A DNA stretch of 57,971 nucleotides, the filler included, from Porpidia crustulata (taxonomy: Eukaryota): assembly GCA_964255105.1 (NCBI GenBank). It is 5 parts of 5 records of this genome, joined end to end, with 100 filler letters (N's around TTAATTAATTAA, not from the genome) between each part and the next. Parts side by side here need not be neighbours in the genome. Positions count along the whole stretch, not along the records: positions 1 to 11,525 come from CAXUWE010000645.1; 4 more parts are not named here. One strand, written 5' to 3'. Of the stretch, positions 517 to 8,900 are shown piece by piece. The position numbers and the translations under genes were made by a program. The notes beneath the pieces were generated by a model, which was not told the origin of the DNA, made no database searches, and saw only the letters and a list, made by a program, of their open reading frames with translations. Within the stretch, counting starts at the first letter, position 1. Every line of letters begins with the position of its first letter.

Positions 517-1837
517 TTAGTGCGCCATCCCGTTCCGTCTCCCAATTTTCCGAGCAGTGCCAATCGTTGCACGTTTTACTTCACTGGCGACGTCCCCGCT
601 CTCTTCGCCACTGGTCGATTTGTCCTCAACATCGCCATCTTCGGCATCAGAAGTTCCTAGCGCTCGATTTTTGACATTGACGTATGCCCAGAGTGGCAGA
701 CGGAATAACACCGTGTCTCGAAAGGTAGGCTTCATTACTTCTTCCGGATCTAAGAGATATTCTCCTTTTGTCCCATCATCGCCTTCCTGCTCAAGGAAAA
801 CGTTTCCCACGGAATCTACGATCAAAACCTTGCCGTTCTCCGCTTGTACTTTTTTCTTTGCACCTTGAGGACCAGCATCAGATTCAGATTCAAGGGCCAT
901 CCTAGTCCCTCTCTGACGTACCCCCCGAGTGATCTTTACATCCTTCTCTTTTTTGCTCTCCCTATCTTGTTGGCGCTTCTGCCTACGATTAAGCGAAAGG
1001 CCCACGTCTTCTTGGCTGGCAGCGGCAGACGTTGCAACCTCGGCCGCGTCAACACCCGGGATGCCTCTACCTAATGATTCGTCACCCCAAGCAGTTCGTC
1101 TCGCATGTCGAATATACCGCTCCACAAATTCTCTTTGCCTCATCCAGCTCACGTACATTGCACCATAGTGGGCCAAGCCTCCACCAAGTACAAAAAGGCC
1201 AATAAGCACTGATCCAAGTCCTGGACGGAACCGCGCATAGTAGTAACCAGTGCCCTTCCACTTGGGGAAGCCGTTGCTCAAGAAATGATCATATCTCTCC
1301 CGGCCCGATCCTTTCAGAATGGTTGTGATCACGGCTAATCGTGCAAATCTGTCACTAGCTTTCTTTATAGCATCACGAATATCTGTATCCGATGGAGGTT
1401 TGCTGACATGGACACCGGGATTCACTTTCCGTGAATCAAGCTTAGACTTCGAGGTTGGCTTCGCCCTTGACGCAATCAAAGATTGCTTGGCTTTATCAGG
1501 GTGTATGACACGGGATCGCTTCCTGTAGGCTCTGGCAATGTCATCTTGCGATGCGCTGGGCTTCACGCCCAAGAATTCTAATGAATGATCGTTGCTTAGC
1601 ATATCTGAGCTTAGCTCCGCGTTCAAGGATATTTACTTACCGTAAAAGGTCACACCAGGGCCTTCTGAAGCTTCTATCTCATCTCGCAATCGGAATATTT
1701 CATGATCTATGTAAGAGTAATCAGGAGAAGCCGCGACTGGCTCACAAGATCGGCGTTCGCTCACCCTCCTTTCCCCAGCCTACTACGACGGCTAACAACG
1801 ATCCCCAAAGCAACAACGAAAAGAGTGAGTATCTCAT
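517..1837 (-). CDS. ER membrane DnaJ (J-domain) protein, Erj5-like; 3 exons (1837-1765, 1706-1641, 1577-517)
   Basis: Signal peptide MRYSLFSLLLWGSLLAVVVG, then WGKEDHEIFRLRDE..TFYEFLGV across two GT-AG introns; HPD motif (VIHPDK); ERYDHFLSNGFPKWKGTGYYY followed by a TM helix. Confidence 0.88.
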
Positions 1838-2407: not shown

Positions 2408-2938
2408 ATGGCACGTATTCAGATTCCCCTGGACGCTTTGACATCCCGGCTCAACCTCGGGTCTCGTTTCGAAAGCGTCCGTTCTCAGTCCGTTGGAACC
2501 AGATTCGCCAACCTAAAGCCAATCTCCGAATTTCTAGACTTCAAACGCCTTTCCAAGCCTGCCGATTTTGGGGATGTTCAAAGTAGAATCAACTACAATC
2601 TCGGCTACTTCTCAAGCAATTACGCTGCAGTTGCAATCATGCTAGGAATCTACAGTCTACTGACAAATCTCACATTACTGTTCGACATTATCTTCGTTGG
2701 AGTTGGATGGTTTGGGATCAAGAAGCTGAATGGTCGAGATCTTGAGCTTGGCTTTGGGCGTGCGACCACCTCACAGCTTTACACTGGTCTGCTAGTAATA
2801 GCCGTGCCTCTTTTTATTTGGGCCTCACCGATCTCAACTGCACTTTGGCTAGTCGGAGCCAACGGCGTAAGCATCCTTGGTCACGCATCATTTATGGACA
2901 AACCAATCGATACAGCTTTTTCAGAGGAGGCGGTCTAG
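2408..2938 (+). CDS. YIP3: Prenylated Rab acceptor 1 (PRA1 family), Yip3; 176 aa, intronless
   Basis: LKPISEFLDFKRLSKP..SRINYNLGYFSSNY and ILGHASF motifs plus hydrophobic hairpins typical of PRA1. Confidence 0.93.
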   Translation: MARIQIPLDALTSRLNLGSRFESVRSQSVGTRFANLKPISEFLDFKRLSKPADFGDVQSRINYNLGYFSSNYAAVAIMLGIYSLLTNLTLLFDIIFVGVGWFGIKKLNGRDLELGFGRATTSQLYTGLLVIAVPLFIWASPISTALWLVGANGVSILGHASFMDKPIDTAFSEEAV

Positions 2939-2987
2939 GTGGTCGGCCGCGAACTCCAAAAGATATGCCCTCATGGGGAAGACCATC
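2917..2987 (+). other. Putative -1 ribosomal frameshift signal: slippery T_TTT_TCA, 6-nt spacer, H-type pseudoknot
   Basis: Heptamer 2917-2923 is in the YIP3 frame. Stem 1 is GCGGTC(2930-35)/GGCCGC(2945-50). Stem 2 is GGTGGTC(2938-44)/GACCATC(2981-87). Confidence 0.7.
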
Positions 2988-4245
2988 CGGGGCTCGAGAC
3001 GGAAAGAAGAGGAAGGGAGAATTAAGGCATACACGGCAAAGGGAGGAAGATCGACGTTTTGAAGAAATAGACAGTGATGACTTAGATGGACATAGCGTTA
3101 ATTGGAATGGGACATACTCTAGCGATGAACTGCATTTTACCGACATTGACTTAGGACTGGGAATTCGGCGTCGACAGCGACGTGATCACAATCATGTCTA
3201 TAGCTCCGGAGCTTCGGAAGTAGATGAATATGACCCAGAAGAGATAGTTGGGGGTACAATGCAGCTAGCTCTGAGAGACAAGGAAGAATTACTTGTGCAG
3301 AGGGCTCTGGATCGTATACGCCGTGCTCAGATGCTTGGGAGGACCAATGTCAAGTTAACCCAGCCTGAAATTGATGCCCTAGAACGCAGGAAGCGGAAAG
3401 ACCGAGCGAAGTCCAGAGGCACAGAAACGACATCAAAGGGCGTCGAACGACGGCGAAGTACCGAATACTCCAGTGCTACCCTCAAGCACGACAACTCGGC
3501 GAATAGAAGATCGAAAAATCTCATCCCGAGGTACACTAAGAGTGGCTCGTCGAGCCCTGCTCGAGCAACACCTCCACGCTTGGTCTCACCTGGCCCAGAC
3601 AGCACTCCGGCCTTCACGCCCTTTGCTTATTACCCACAGTCAGGCGCCGCTCTACAAAGCCGATCGTCGCGCTCTACGTCGGGATCAACAAGCTCTCATA
3701 GCCCTCGGCAATTGAATCTTCCTTTGTTGCCAAACCGACCGCATACTCAGATGAGACGTTATGTCTCGGTACCAGAATCCTTACAACCAGAGTCGTTGTC
3801 TCGTTCGCCGCCTCCGCCGCGGCGTTTACCTGATGATCCCAACTGGGCTCCACGACCTCGGTCAGCTTCTTCGAGTCAGCCCCATCCTACTGAGCCGTCT
3901 CAGCATCAAGCGCACTCTCCGCCACTCCCACAAGTGCCCATTCAATACAGCCAAGGCCGAAGACATGTTTCAGGTCCGTCGGATATCCAGTACTCCAATG
4001 CGCGAAGACTTCCTCTCCCACAAATGCCTTATGCCACCCCCTCCGATCCCTCGAGTTTACAACGAGAATACTTAGACGAGGCACCAGGCGAGGCTAGTCT
4101 TAGTGAAGACGACTCCGACTATGACAATGACACAGAAAATTCTGGTGTTAGGGTTGATGTTATCCCCTTCGTGGGGGAAGGCTATACTGTGGATGTGAGC
4201 TCTGGAACTCTTTCCGGGCGGAGGCAAAGACAAAGTTTACGATGA
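2920..4245 (+). CDS. Ser/Pro/Arg-rich ORF in the -1 frame overlapping the YIP3 3' end; probable trans-frame extension of Yip3 (alternative own ATG at 2965)
   Basis: -1 frame is open from 2746 to 4245. The first ATG lies only 26 nt after the YIP3 stop. Contains a helical block MQLALRDKEELLVQRALDRIRRAQMLG. Confidence 0.8.
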   Translation, partial: FRGGGLGGRPRTPKDMPSWGRPSGARDGKKRKGELRHTRQREEDRRFEEIDSDDLDGHSVNWNGTYSSDELHFTDIDLGLGIRRRQRRDHNHVYSSGASEVDEYDPEEIVGGTMQLALRDKEELLVQRALDRIRRAQMLGRTNVKLTQPEIDALERRKRKDRAKSRGTETTSKGVERRRSTEYSSATLKHDNSANRRSKNLIPRYTKSGSSSPARATPPRLVSPGPDSTPAFTPFAYYPQSGAALQSRSSRSTSGSTSSHSPRQLNLPLLPNRPHTQMRRYVSVPESLQPESLSRSPPPPRRLPDDPNWAPRPRSASSSQPHPTEPSQHQAHSPPLPQVPIQYSQGRRHVSGPSDIQYSNARRLPLPQMPYATPSDPSSLQREYLDEAPGEASLSEDDSDYDNDTENSGVRVDVIPFVGEGYTVDVSSGTLSGRRQRQSLR

Positions 4246-5975: not shown

Positions 5976-8900
5976 ATGGCCGGCGCCAAATCGCAGAAAC
6001 TTGAGGATCAAGGTGAGCCGGTGCATGGAATCGTGGCAGAAATCTCTACTTACGCTCATACACCAAAGCTGCAAAGTCTGCCATGTACGACGTAAAGCCA
6101 AATGGAGGAAACAAGCACAAAAGTAGTTATCCCTTGGATGACGACAATAAACTGTCCTCCGCAGGTATAAACTCGATTACCTTCGTAATGAGAATTCAGC
6201 ATCTTACATTCTTACAGGAGCTGCTGCCTCGCTTAAGTATATCGACCCGCGTGACCTTCCATCGTTTCCTTCCGCGGGCTTCTCCAATAAAGATTCTTGG
6301 GCAGGCGCAGCCGCAAGCCTGGCAAATGCCAACCAAAAAGCCTTCGAATATTGGAAACCTGACCCCTCGGTATCTGCAAACAAAGCTGCGCTGCTGGCAA
6401 AGGACTACAAAGCTGCGCCACGATGGCATCCAGAAATGAGTTCGGCGGGCTCCAAGGCAGCGCTTCTGGCTGCGAAGGACGGAGGGCACGTCGATGTGTG
6501 GAGACCTGAACCAACCAACGCAGGTAGCTCCGCAGCTGGGCAGGCCATGCGCATGAAAGGATTAAGCCCTCAGGTATACCAAGGGGTTACTATCGACGAG
6601 AGCAAGAGAGCCTTACTCGCTGCAACGGGTGCAATGTCTGGAAGCAGAAAGCGCGCTGGCTCCATGCCAATCGTCAACCCTAGGTATCCAGGCTCCGCTA
6701 ATGCCGCAACCAATGCTCTCAGCGCCGCGACTTTGGCGAACAAACCTACAAACACTATACAAGCACACACGCGGGCGTCGACACCAATTGATGGAGCCCA
6801 GATTCATAATGCAGCAGTGACCAAATTATCCCGCGAGATGTATACATCGCATCCTCCTGTAGCACCAGAGATTGAAGAGAAGAATCGACAGGCCGGCCTG
6901 CGAGCTGCTGCAATCTCCATGGCGAAGCAAATGTATGATGTACAGGAAAAAGCAATAGAAGCGGCTTCTGCAGATGTGGAAAATGCTGAAAGCCGCTATG
7001 CTGCCACAAGTGTGCATAATCGCCAGGTATCTACAGTCATGCCCGCCGGGGCGCAACCGTCGGTCACCCAGTATACCAATTTACAGGGAGCTGCGCAGAA
7101 GCTGGCAGCAGAGCGCCTGGCCAAGCTTCACGACGAACACGCCGCATATCGCAACTACTATGGAGCAGCCCCTCCACCACAGTCTAGGTTATCAATCCGA
7201 GGACGCACTCGGAGACGAGCTTCCAGCGATGGACAAATCGACGATTCTGACGCTGCACGTTCGAAACAGATTCGGTCTGAGATGTCTTTGTTTAACGACA
7301 AGCTAGCACAAGTCGACGCCAAGAAGCGGCAGCAAGATCGAGACTCACTAATGGCAGCTGCGCAGAGAAATGTTAAGGCAAGTATGCACGGTATGGACGA
7401 AAAGGTCTTCAATGAGACTGGTAAAGCTTCACCAGCAATGATTGAGGAACGGGAGGCCAAAGCGAGCGCTCGTGCGAAGGCAGACAGTGAAGCCCGCATG
7501 GTCAACCATGGAAGGGTTGATATTGGTGGTGGGAAGTACCTCGATCAGTCTGAGATTGACGCCATTGCCGTGCGGCGAGTTCAGCCCACCCTTGACGAAA
7601 TCACGGAAAAGGTCCAGAAACATAGAGCCAGGGATGAGCAACTCAGGCAAGCACAGCTGGAGCGTGAACGGCTCGCGACAGAAAAATTTCAGGACCAGAA
7701 GGAGCGTGACCTCAGGACCAAGGAGGAATGGAAAAAATTTAGAGGTACTTTCCAGTGATGTTTCGATATTTTCGTAGCTGTACTGATTGCAAACAGAGGA
7801 CGAGAAGTTAGAAATCAAGGCCAAGAAAGAAGAAAAAAAGGCGAAGAAGGCTGAGCAGAAGCGGCTCCGAGAGGGAGAAAAGCGTAGGGGCAAAGAAATT
7901 CCTACGACCTTGACAAGTGCGACTCGAAACTCTGAAGAAAGGCCAGTGACCGCGACAGAGCCTCCAATCCTTGATCCGATACCAAATGTTGGGCCATTAT
8001 CCACAGAAGCACCAGGTATTGCAACGGCAGCCAATAAGGAAATCTCTCTAGTCAACCTACCCCTGAAACTAGCACCCAAGGGCGAGTCTGTTTCCGCCCG
8101 AGTGACAGGCTTTTCATCATTGCCTTCTGGGGAAATATCTCCAGTCGAGCTAGCTCCAATCACAAATTCGATACCTAGAGGGACGACAACTCCACCAATA
8201 ATAGATCCAGATCATGCCGAACATGTGGCTGCTCGCGTACTATCGGCACCAATTGTTAATGAAGAGCTTCCACCAATTACAGACATTAGCCCTTCCTTGA
8301 TGCCTGTCCAGACGACCGCTATGCCGCTATCTATTCCTAAGTCCTCGAGTATTTCTACGCCGGAGGAGCCCACTGAGCTATCTATCACAACGGCATCCAC
8401 CGCATTAACTAAGCCGATTGAGCATACCGACTCCGTTTCATCCCGAACTGATCCTGTTGCAACCACACAAACCACCATTACTGGCCCCGCAAAAGAACCA
8501 AAAAGCGAGTCCAAAGTTTCCTCCTGGCTAAAATCGAAATTCTCCTCTCGAACCAATAAACCCACCAAGGAGGTAGCTCCCGAAAGTAGCAGTAAAGAGA
8601 AAGCCTTTGTCGGCGGTGCAACTTTGACCGACCCAAACGTTGCCAGCCAAAATAGCCTCGGACCCACTAAGATCTCATCCGTGCGTGAGGCCGCGATGGC
8701 CGGCCGCCAACCTGCCGCTGTCCTTGATGGTCCAGTCGATGACCACGAGCTCTATGCCGCTTCCGAGCCACGGAGCCAAGCCCGACGTCGCGATCACCCC
8801 TCCTCACCATACATCAGCAGCATTTCAAGCGACGAGGACACGAGAGGTCGATCGACCATGAGAAGGGAAGAGACGGAGAGCACCCAGGGTGAGGAGTTTG

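What the first reader, a model, noticed from the sequence alone, without database searches (positions are those of the whole stretch)
2924..2987. H-type RNA pseudoknot positioned 6 nt downstream of the YIP3 slippery site
Folded by hand: stem 1 GCGGUC(2930-35) pairs with GGCCGC(2945-50), 6 bp with one G-U. The loop segment GGUGGUC(2938-44) pairs with GACCAUC(2981-87), 7 bp with one G-U. The 30-nt connecting loop holds a small CCC-UCAU-GGG hairpin and the ATG at 2965. The YIP3 UAG stop sits in the stem 1 loop. The 6-nt spacer and two-stem geometry match viral -1 frameshift stimulators, so this is independent support for recoding.
Basis: partly seen in the sequence, partly recalled or inferred. 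Interest (0 to 1): 0.8.

Follow-up and report, generated by a model that had tools for sequence, protein, structure and literature searches.

The report
Known YIP3 frameshift signal, lichen fungus
This is the lichen-fungus copy of an already published ribosomal frameshift signal at the end of the YIP3 gene of filamentous ascomycetes; the proposed RNA knot fits the sequence and its relatives, but only its second stem would add anything new.

Summary
All 13 stated base pairs exist at the stated coordinates. Such a two-stem knot is rare by chance: 15 of 57,971 start positions, and 7 of 2,000 local shuffles.

The locus is the PRA1/YIP3 gene (2408-2938) of a Lecanoromycete. A 426-codon ORF follows in the -1 frame.

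In 40 related metagenome loci the geometry is identical, and about 75 nt (2916-2993) are almost invariant. These loci include groups whose named relatives are Helotiales and Chaetothyriales. The ATG at 2965 is not conserved: ATG 12, GTG 17, TCG 9, TTG 3 of 41.

This is a known system. Malagnac et al. 2013 (PMC3777964) showed -1 frameshifting at U_UUU_UCC in Podospora YIP3, with a stem-loop or possible pseudoknot 2 nt downstream, conserved across Pezizomycotina.

- Stem 1 carries a conserved 4-bp extension (2926-29 with 2954-57), so the spacer is 2 nt, not 6.
- The heptamer is non-canonical.

Stem 1 has a compensatory change. Stem 2 shows only invariance and G-C/G-U switches.

One point may be new. 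The stem 2 3' arm (2981-87) lies beyond the 59-nt fragment used in the published reporter assay.

The parts
2408..2938 (+). YIP3/PRA1 5' ORF (176 codons plus TAG), the short form
   Evidence: Pfam PF03208 PRA1, E 1.2e-38, residues 32-172. ORF listing. tblastn finds it at 66-92% identity in 40 related loci.
2917..2923 (+). Shift site U_UUU_UCA (frame-0 codons 171 UUU and 172 UCA)
   Evidence: Read from the sequence. CTTTTTC is invariant in 26 of 26 aligned junctions. The last base is C in all but W and L033, which have A. In 12 loci a -1 frame TGA lies directly before GGC TTT TTC, so entry into the -1 frame must occur between window 2914 and 2938. The published site in Podospora is U_UUU_UCC at codon 170.
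2926..2957 (+). Stem 1. Lower part GGAG 2926-29 pairs with CUCC 2954-57. Bulge GAA 2951-53. Upper part GCGGUC 2930-35 pairs with GGCCGC 2945-50. Loop 2936-44 contains the UAG stop 2936-38.
   Evidence: It is part of the RNAfold MFE and evaluates to -14.2 kcal/mol. 100% of cells are paired in 22 distinct sequences. Pair 2932:2948 is G-C in 21 and A-U in 1 (L030). Pair 2934:2946 is U-G in 21 and U-A in 1 (L032). The printed Podospora fragment has U-A where the window has C-G at 2931:2949 (compared by eye).
2938..2944 (+). Proposed stem 2, 5' arm GGUGGUC (in the stem 1 loop)
   Evidence: Invariant in 26 of 26 aligned sequences, although it is Gly-Gly codons in the -1 frame and lies after the frame-0 stop.
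2981..2987 (+). Proposed stem 2, 3' arm GACCAUC
   Evidence: 99.4% of cells are paired. Pair 2939:2986 is G-U in 11, G-C in 10 and other in 1 (L020). Pair 2938:2987 is G-C in 21 and G-U in 1 (L044). The overlapping codons GGA AGA CCA use a single codon each in 31 of 31 distinct 3' ORFs, whereas invariant Arg and Pro elsewhere use 4-6 codons. Stacking is about -11.4 kcal/mol, or -14.0 with C at 2986.
2968..2978 (+). Small hairpin in the connecting loop: CCCU 2968-71 pairs with GGGG 2975-78, loop CAU
Evidence: 98.9% of cells are paired and the loop bases vary. Energy -4.1 kcal/mol. The two registers cannot be told apart.
2920..4245 (+). 3' ORF in the -1 frame (441 codons from the UUC at 2920, plus the stop). 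It is joined to YIP3 by the shift and gives a predicted long form of 612 aa.
   Evidence: ORF 2818..4245. No Pfam family. 177 homologues at E up to 1e-3. Codon 2965 is ATG in only 12 of 41 loci. The length is arithmetic on the coordinates.
2916..2993 (+). Conserved nucleotide island that bounds the whole signal
   Evidence: The majority fraction at frame-0 third positions is 0.38-0.71 in the YIP3 body (2636-2890) and 0.98-1.00 at 2921-2950. At -1 frame third positions it is 1.00 at 2966-2980, 0.84 at 2981-2995 and 0.64 at 2996-3010 (28 distinct sequences).

Best explanation
The region is the programmed -1 ribosomal frameshift cassette of the YIP3 (PRA1 family, Rab-GDI displacement factor) gene of Pezizomycotina, here in a lichen-forming Lecanoromycete.

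Most ribosomes stop at UAG 2936-38 and make the 176-aa short form. A minority slip back one base on U_UUU_UCA (2917-2923). They then read through the 'intergenic' 26 nt and the 426-codon downstream ORF, giving a long form of about 612 aa.

The slip is helped by a G-C-rich stem 1 that starts 2 nt after the heptamer (2926-2957, 10 bp with a 3-nt bulge). It is probably also helped by stem 2, in which the stem 1 loop (2938-44) pairs with 2981-87 to make an IBV-like H-type pseudoknot. L1 would be 2 nt, there would be no base between the stems, and the 23-nt connecting loop would hold a small hairpin.

Shown here: the anatomy, its conservation and the covariation in stem 1.
Taken from the literature on the orthologue: that the shift happens and that the long protein is made.
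Inferred: that stem 2 forms and stimulates (my odds about 0.5), and whether both tRNAs or only the P-site tRNA slip.
For: 1. Identity of the gene pair. The 5' ORF is PRA1. The 3' ORF has no Pfam family and lies in the -1 frame.

2. Geometry. All 40 loci that hold both ORFs have the same layout. These are 40 of the 43 loci fetched; L034, L042 and L043 lack the YIP3 part. In each, TAG follows the last YIP3 codon and the codon equivalent to 2965 lies 30 nt after that codon's end, in the -1 frame.

3. The start codon is not conserved: ATG 12, GTG 17, TCG 9, TTG 3 of 41. Upstream in-frame ATGs are absent in 30 of 41. Yet the N-terminal peptide (P.WGRP...) is conserved.

4. The shift window is bounded. 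A -1 frame TGA lies directly before GGC UUU UUC in 12 loci. Codon 2923-25 is always Arg in the -1 frame (AGA, CGA, CGG or AGG), while frame 0 changes E to G.

5. There is an ultra-conserved island at 2916-2993. The aligned groups have named relatives in Lecanoromycetes, Helotiales and Chaetothyriales.

6. Stem 1 is 100% paired, with one double compensatory change (L030) that alters two -1 frame residues, and one U-G to U-A change (L032).

7. Stem 2 is 99.4% paired. Its two variable positions switch only between G-C and G-U, with one exception. The same changes break the rival nested hairpin, which is 89.9% paired, with pair 2973:2986 lost in 11 of 22. There is no synonymous variation in its 3' arm.

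8. Literature. PMC3777964 (sections 14, 15, 18, 21 and passages read) reports the following for Podospora:
- the shift site U_UUU_UCC;
- a structure 2 nt downstream;
- 12 unspliced cDNAs;
- an 88-kDa GFP fusion;
- 1% frameshifting in a yeast reporter against 0.3% for the control;
- conservation in all Pezizomycotina examined except two species.
The Atkins 2016 review repeats this (passage).
Against: - Nothing here measures frameshifting or RNA structure in this organism.
- Nested folding of the region is not better than shuffles (z -0.90 and -0.16).
- Stem 2 has no double compensatory change, and L020 breaks one pair.
- In the window, a nested 3' hairpin (2967-2993, -13.2 kcal/mol) competes with stem 2. 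With a usual knot penalty it would be predicted to win.
- GGGGC at 2989-93 and AA at 2979-80 are conserved but not explained by the knot.
- In the published assay the Podospora structure did not raise frameshifting on the IBV heptamer to IBV levels. Its stimulatory role is therefore unproven even in the model species.
- The 2-nt spacer and the non-canonical heptamer differ from viral cassettes.
Confidence: 0.9

Rival explanations
1. The same known frameshift cassette, but the stimulator is only the extended stem-loop 2926-2957. Conservation of 2966-2993 has another cause: a separate nested hairpin (2967-2993), a bound factor, or constraint on the first residues of the extension.
For: - The nested hairpin is in the MFE and evaluates to -13.2 kcal/mol.
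- Its outer GCCCU with GGGGC helix is mostly kept, 20-22 of 22 per pair.
- GGGGC 2989-93 is conserved and unexplained by the knot.
- Stem 2 has no double compensatory change.
Against: - The loop bases 2936-44 are invariant in 26 of 26 sequences, which a plain hairpin loop does not require.
- The U/C switch at 2986 removes the nested pair 2973:2986 in 11 of 22 sequences but keeps stem 2.
- The nested hairpin is weak (-3.9 to -6.8 kcal/mol) in 4 of 21 sequences, while stem 2 stacking is kept in 20 of 21.
- L044 loses two nested pairs and keeps stem 2.
Confidence: 0.35
2. Two independent neighbouring genes. The downstream protein starts at ATG 2965, from its own transcript or by reinitiation after the YIP3 stop 26 nt upstream. 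The conserved RNA would then be a termination-reinitiation, 3' end or promoter element.
For: - The window has an ATG at 2965, and 12 of 41 loci do.
- Many database entries list the 3' ORF as a separate protein starting MPSWGRPSG.
- GTG and TTG (20 of 41) are near-cognate starts.
Against: - TCG occupies the position in 9 of 41 loci, with no upstream in-frame ATG in most of them. L007 has only 21 open codons upstream and no ATG, yet the following peptide is conserved.
- The -1 frame codon 2923-25 stays Arg upstream of the stop.
- In Podospora the GFP-tagged long form runs at 88 kDa, the size of both ORFs together, and 12 cDNAs span both ORFs.
Confidence: 0.04
3. The two ORFs are joined by splicing: a small intron or an alternative acceptor near 2923/2924 changes the frame. 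Many automatic gene models assume this.
For: - In the window UUUUUCAG|A resembles a 3' splice site.
- 15 of the 120 listed homologues are fused PRA1-plus-extension models.
Against: - The AG is absent in 24 of 26 aligned junctions, which read CCG.
- The fused models use different junctions in nearly every species examined, as expected of predictor artefacts.
- Podospora cDNAs are unspliced there.
Confidence: 0.01

Closest known systems
PaYIP3 -1 frameshift signal of Podospora anserina and other Pezizomycotina (Malagnac et al. 2013, PLoS One 8:e73772, PMC3777964). The site goes back to the Podospora genome paper, Espagne et al. 2008, PMC2441463. The passages I saw there only say that 14 genes may need a frame-shift or read-through and that four sites are conserved. 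YIP3 is not named in its main text.
   Same: - It is the same gene (YIP3/PRA1 5' ORF) with the same domain-less 3' ORF in the -1 frame.
- It has the same U-run shift site near codon 170 and the same G-C-rich stem starting 2 nt downstream.
- By eye, 38 of the first 43 bases of the printed 59-nt Podospora fragment equal window 2915-2957. Two of the five differences form a compensatory pair in stem 1.
   Different: - The host class: 'Lecanoromycetes' and 'lichen' occur 0 times in the paper's main text. Its species figure is not held.
- The heptamer ends in A, not C.
- An ATG is present at the codon that is TCG in the printed Podospora fragment.
- The stem 2 proposed here uses a 3' arm (2981-87) that lies beyond the 3' end of the published reporter fragment, which corresponds to about window 2973. 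The published knot must therefore use another partner. I could not see Figures 1C and 3B.
Coronavirus IBV 1a/1b H-type frameshift pseudoknot (named in PMC3777964 as the comparison; its dimensions are recalled, not from a call)
   Same: It has a long G-C-rich stem 1, a short L1 of 2 nt, stem 2 stacked directly on stem 1, and a long connecting loop. It acts on ribosomes paused over a U/A-rich heptamer.
   Different: - IBV has a canonical U_UUA_AAC heptamer and a 6-nt spacer. Here the heptamer is non-canonical and the spacer is 2 nt.
- The frame-0 stop lies inside the stem 1 loop.
- The published Podospora element did not substitute for the IBV knot.
Mammalian cellular -1 frameshift genes PEG10/edr and Ma3 (cited in the introduction of PMC3777964)
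   Same: They are cellular genes in which a -1 shift near the end of ORF1 gives an ORF1-ORF2 fusion, with a downstream structure.
   Different: Those genes derive from retroelements and use canonical heptamers. YIP3 is a housekeeping trafficking gene with no retroelement relation seen here.
Antizyme +1 frameshifting (recalled, not from a call)
   Same: It is a conserved recoding site in a fungal cellular gene, with the frame-0 stop close to the shift site and flanking RNA stimulators.
   Different: The direction is +1, it is polyamine-sensed, and the shift occurs at the stop codon itself.

Membership tests
YIP3 -1 frameshift cassette of Pezizomycotina (PMC3777964) | The 5' ORF is the YIP3/PRA1 orthologue | tested here: met
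   PF03208, E 1.2e-38, 132 bits against a cut-off of 30.1.
YIP3 -1 frameshift cassette of Pezizomycotina (PMC3777964) | A long 3' ORF without a known domain, overlapping the end of YIP3 in the -1 frame and found in Pezizomycotina | tested here: met
   ORF 2818..4245 in the -1 frame. 0 Pfam families. Named homologues are only in Lecanoromycetes, Helotiales, Chaetothyriales and one Aureobasidium. Direct comparison with the Podospora 3' ORF was not possible because no Podospora sequence is held.
YIP3 -1 frameshift cassette of Pezizomycotina (PMC3777964) | Shift site U_UUU_UCC near codon 170 | tested here: met
   U_UUU_UCA at codons 171-172 in the window. It is UCC in 24 of 26 aligned junctions.
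YIP3 -1 frameshift cassette of Pezizomycotina (PMC3777964) | A G-C-rich stem starting 2 nt 3' of the shift site | tested here: met
   GGAG-GCGGUC pairs with GGCCGC-GAA-CUCC from 2926. It is in the MFE, evaluates to -14.2 kcal/mol, and is 100% paired in 22 distinct sequences.
YIP3 -1 frameshift cassette of Pezizomycotina (PMC3777964) | Compensatory changes in the structure between taxa | tested here: met
   For stem 1 only. L030 has G-C to A-U at 2932:2948. Podospora has U-A against the window's C-G at 2931:2949 (by eye). Stem 2 shows only one-sided G-C/G-U changes.
YIP3 -1 frameshift cassette of Pezizomycotina (PMC3777964) | One unspliced mRNA spans both ORFs, and a long YIP3-extension protein is made | not testable with these tools
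   No RNA run is listed for this sequence and no proteomics are available. It is shown only for Podospora in the paper.
Canonical viral-type -1 PRF signal (X_XXY_YYZ heptamer, 5-9 nt spacer, H-type pseudoknot) | Heptamer X_XXY_YYZ | tested here: not met
   U_UUU_UCA/C. After the shift, A-site re-pairing needs a G-U pair at the middle codon position (read from the sequence; the same argument is made).
Canonical viral-type -1 PRF signal (X_XXY_YYZ heptamer, 5-9 nt spacer, H-type pseudoknot) | Spacer of 5-9 nt | tested here: not met
   The spacer is 6 nt only if stem 1 is cut to its upper 6 bp. The four further invariant pairs 2926-29 with 2954-57 leave 2 nt. These four pairs never vary, so they are supported by invariance and energy, not by covariation.
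Canonical viral-type -1 PRF signal (X_XXY_YYZ heptamer, 5-9 nt spacer, H-type pseudoknot) | Stem 2 forms between the stem 1 loop and downstream sequence | tested here: inconclusive
   7 of 7 pairs are possible and 99.4% of cells are kept. It is rare by chance. It has no double compensatory change, and a nested rival of similar energy exists.
Canonical viral-type -1 PRF signal (X_XXY_YYZ heptamer, 5-9 nt spacer, H-type pseudoknot) | The structure raises the frameshift rate | not testable with these tools
   It needs reporter assays. The only published assay used a shorter fragment and found 1%.

The most novel reading that the evidence does not exclude
The working stimulator may be a larger, IBV-like H-type pseudoknot whose stem 2 3' arm (window 2981-87, GACCAYC) lies about 8 nt beyond the 3' end of the 59-nt fragment used in the only published reporter assay.

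This arm is invariant in Lecanoromycete-, Helotiales- and Chaetothyriales-type loci. If it is the true partner, the published fragment lacked stem 2. That would explain the low 1% efficiency in yeast and the failure to stimulate the IBV heptamer. Any knot that can be drawn inside the published fragment has a much weaker stem 2. The candidate I could draw, 2938-42 with 2965-69, is paired in only 84.8% of cells, and its fifth pair fails in 16 of 21 sequences.

Caveats: I could not see the published figures, and I have no Podospora DNA downstream of the printed fragment.
Probability: 0.45. Interest if true: 0.45.

Novelty: already known. Interest (0 to 1): 0.27.

Why it matters
Conserved -1 frameshifting in a cellular, non-retroelement eukaryotic gene is rare, and YIP3 is the fungal example. 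This window adds no new phenomenon.

It does show three things:
- The cassette is present and almost base-for-base unchanged in lichen-forming fungi.
- Public gene models of these fungi handle it wrongly. They either split the gene or fuse the ORFs through invented introns.
- The conserved RNA extends about 20 nt further 3' than the fragment tested so far.

If the extended pseudoknot is the real stimulator, the unusual features reported for this site would need re-measuring with the full element. Those features are the low efficiency and the failure to act on a viral heptamer.

Tried and rejected
- Whole-genome look-up of the window: no genome is held.
- Earlier notes of this scan: none.
- Rfam: no family at the site. 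The only row was SNORD34 at 3114-3164, 14.8 bits against a gathering score of 38, E 7.8, taken as chance.
- Sequencing runs: no RNA holder listed. Read laying was therefore not used, and splicing and expression in this organism remain unchecked.
- Viral contigs: 0 matches to the core pattern.
- Protein Atlas: it only returned Ascomycota clusters auto-named 'Prenylated Rab acceptor 1' at scores 0.91-0.94, with no finer taxonomy.
- 3' splice site at 2923/24: rejected, because the AG is present only in W and L033 of 26 sequences.
- ATG 2965 as the general start: rejected.
- Short stem 2 inside the published fragment (2938-42 with 2965-69): a 4-bp core is kept, but the fifth pair fails in 16 of 21 sequences.
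- Nested 3' hairpin 2967-2993: not excluded, but less well kept than stem 2.
- First literature search ('ribosomal frameshifting' with 'prenylated Rab acceptor'): 0 papers. The paper was found with 'Pezizomycotina'.
- Searches 'PaYIP3' (2 papers) and 'Rab-GDI' with 'frameshifting' and 'Podospora' (3 papers) showed no later structural study in the library. Subscription journals are not covered.
- My first energy script gave a meaningless stacking value because of a length slip. This was corrected.

Full report
**Observation**

The region was read directly and every stated pair was checked by script.
- Stem 1: GCGGUC 2930-35 pairs with GGCCGC 2945-50, 6 of 6 pairs, one U-G.
- Stem 2: GGUGGUC 2938-44 pairs with GACCAUC 2981-87, 7 of 7 pairs, one G-U.
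- The U-rich heptamer TTTTTCA is at 2917-23.
- The frame-0 stop UAG 2936-38 lies in the stem 1 loop.
- An ATG lies at 2965 inside a 30-nt connecting loop.

Ordinary nested folding does not mark the region as special. The z-score is -0.90 for 2915-2995 and -0.16 for 2924-2987. The MFE keeps stem 1 but pairs 2983-86 in a local hairpin.

A direct count of H-type knots of this size shows they are rare. They occur at 15 of 57,971 start positions on the + strand of the window, and in 7 of 2,000 dinucleotide shuffles of 2924-3010.

**What the locus is**

- ORF 2408-2938 is a PRA1/YIP3 protein (PF03208, E 1.2e-38).
- The -1 frame is open from 2818 to 4245. From ATG 2965 it encodes 426 residues with no Pfam family.
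- A search with this protein found 177 homologues at E up to 1e-3. The named ones among the 120 listed are all lichen-forming Lecanoromycetes.
- 15 of those 120 are gene models that fuse a PRA1 domain to this protein. Their junctions differ from species to species.
- Many other entries extend upstream of the 'MPSWGRPSG' start in the same frame and read ...RYSFFRGGGLGGRPRTP.... In these the Met is replaced by Ser or Thr.

This was the first sign that the 26 nt between the stop and the ATG are translated, and that the ATG is not needed.

**Related DNA**

A metagenome scan with an alignment of 17 homologues returned 43 loci. Forty of them hold both ORFs; L034, L042 and L043 lack the YIP3 part.

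All 40 have exactly the window's geometry: TAG, then the codon equivalent to 2965 thirty bases after the last YIP3 codon, in the -1 frame. Identity ranges from 66-92% for YIP3 and 32-69% for the 3' ORF.

- The L024 group has its named relatives in Helotiales.
- The L037 group has its named relatives in Chaetothyriales.
- One more copy, L044, came from a pattern scan of genome contigs.

**Evidence for recoding in these data**

- The codon at 2965 is ATG in 12, GTG in 17, TCG in 9 and TTG in 3 of 41 loci.
- An upstream in-frame ATG exists in only 11 of 41.
- In 12 loci a -1 frame TGA sits immediately before GGC UUU UUC. Ribosomes can therefore enter the -1 frame only between window 2914 and the stop at 2936-38.
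- Codon 2923-25 is Arg in every sequence in the -1 frame, while frame 0 changes Glu to Gly.
- CTTTTTC is invariant in 26 of 26 sequences.

**Conservation**

Third codon positions of YIP3 vary freely up to about 2890, with majority fractions of 0.38-0.71. At 2921-2950 the fraction rises to 0.98-1.00. The -1 frame third positions are invariant at 2966-2980, then decay to 0.84 and 0.64.

A codon control shows this is a nucleotide constraint, not a protein constraint. Invariant Arg and Pro residues elsewhere in the 3' ORF use 4-6 codons. The Pro, Gly, Arg and Pro at codons 2, 5, 6 and 7 use one codon each in 31 of 31 distinct ORFs.

**Structure tests**

All counts are from the count of structure pairs on 22 distinct junctions.

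*Stem 1*
- It is 100% paired.
- L030 carries G-C to A-U at 2932:2948. This double change alters two residues of the -1 frame but keeps the pair.
- L032 turns U-G into U-A at 2934:2946.
- Stem 1 continues downward with four invariant pairs, GGAG 2926-29 with CUCC 2954-57, across a 3-nt bulge. The third bulge base (A, U or G) is the only variable base there.
- The structure therefore starts 2 nt, not 6 nt, after the heptamer.

*Stem 2*
- It is 99.4% paired.
- Pair 2939:2986 is G-U in 11, G-C in 10 and broken in 1 (L020).
- Pair 2938:2987 is G-C in 21 and G-U in 1 (L044).
- There is no double compensatory change, because both arms hardly vary.

*Rivals to stem 2*
- A short stem 2 that fits inside the published fragment (2938-42 with 2965-69) is 84.8% paired. 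Its fifth pair fails in 16 of 21 sequences.
- The nested hairpin 2967-2993 is 89.9% paired, with pair 2973:2986 lost in 11 of 22.

*Energies*

| Element | kcal/mol |
|---|---|
| Stem 1 with extension | -14.2 |
| Loop hairpin | -4.1 |
| Stem 2 stacking (U / C at 2986) | -11.4 / -14.0 |
| Nested rival hairpin, window | -13.2 |
| Nested rival hairpin, weakest 4 of 21 sequences | -3.9 to -6.8 |

With a usual knot penalty the nested fold would win in the window. Stem 2 is therefore favoured by comparison between species but not by simple thermodynamics. I put stem 2 at about even odds.

**Literature**

The first search found nothing. 'Ribosomal frameshifting' with 'Pezizomycotina' found Malagnac et al. 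2013 (PMC3777964). I read its outline, sections 14, 15, 18 and 21, and passages. It reports the following:
- The Podospora YIP3 mRNA covers two ORFs.
- Twelve cDNAs are unspliced at the site.
- A long form is made by a -1 shift proposed at U_UUU_UCC, codon 170.
- A GFP fusion of the expected 88 kDa is seen.
- A 59-nt fragment gives 1% frameshifting in yeast, against 0.3% out of frame.
- The structure does not raise the IBV heptamer to IBV levels.
- The arrangement, with compensatory changes, is conserved in all Pezizomycotina examined except two species. It is replaced by a +1 arrangement in Capnodiales and Ophiostomatales.

The Atkins 2016 review summarises this (passage). Espagne 2008 (passages) mentions only 14 candidate genes, four of them conserved.

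By eye, the printed Podospora fragment matches window 2915-2957 at 38 of 43 bases. Two of the five differences form a compensatory pair in stem 1 (2931:2949, C-G in the window, U-A in Podospora).

The figures that show the published knot are not held, so the difference between the two models is inferred from the fragment's end.

**Verdict**

It is the known YIP3 frameshift cassette, here in a lichen fungus.

The one point that may go beyond the literature is the choice of stem 2 partner. That partner is better conserved than the alternatives and was outside the tested reporter fragment.

Noticed in passing
window 2408-4245; proteins P0017, P0056, P0069, P0071, P0086, P0088, P0091, P0093, P0099, P0102, P0106, P0110, P0112, P0114, P0116: 15 of the 120 listed homologues are public gene models that fuse PRA1 to the 3' ORF through invented junctions. 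The junctions differ between species, for example ...TTSQ|FFFRGGG...GHAS|FFRGGG and ...FSEEA|RKSQ. Most other entries list the 3' ORF as a separate protein. None of the models I read (9 fetched whole, the rest seen only around the junction) reproduces the frameshift product. This recoded gene is systematically mis-annotated in lichen fungi.
   Followed up: partly
L044 553-700 (- strand): A complete fungal YIP3 frameshift cassette lies on a 226-kb contig of a genome record titled as a Cyclobacteriaceae bacterium MAG. The C-terminus reads ...FMDRPIENAFSEEAV*, and the conserved island follows it. This is probably a eukaryotic contig binned into a bacterial genome.
   Followed up: partly
window 2979-2980 and 2988-2993: AA 2979-80 is invariant in all 26 aligned sequences. 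GGGGC 2989-93 is nearly invariant: only 2990 never varies, and each of the other four positions is at least 90% identical. GGGGC could pair with GCCCU 2967-71, which is the nested rival, or the real fold may have a third element.
   Followed up: partly
window 2930-2935 and 2939-2944: GCGGUC and GUGGUC form a near-repeat 9 nt apart. Both can pair with GGCC (2945-48) or GACC (2981-84), so alternative conformers are conceivable.
   Followed up: no
window 2746-2964 (-1 frame) and loci: The -1 frame inside YIP3 stays open 73 codons upstream of codon 2965 in the window, and 115-164 codons in nine loci. In 12 Helotiales-type loci it is closed by a TGA right before the U-run. The long openings are thus not required by the mechanism and are unexplained. 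They may simply reflect codon usage.
   Followed up: partly
window 2965: The window's lineage has an ATG where most others have GTG, TCG or TTG. Whether this allows some independent initiation of the 3' ORF in this fungus is open.
   Followed up: no
window 517-1626 (-), 6436-7758 (+): The flanking genes are a DnaJ-domain protein (PF00226, E 1.7e-8) upstream on the opposite strand and an Eisosome1-domain protein (PF12757, E 3.9e-39) downstream. The window also contains 352 N.
   Followed up: no
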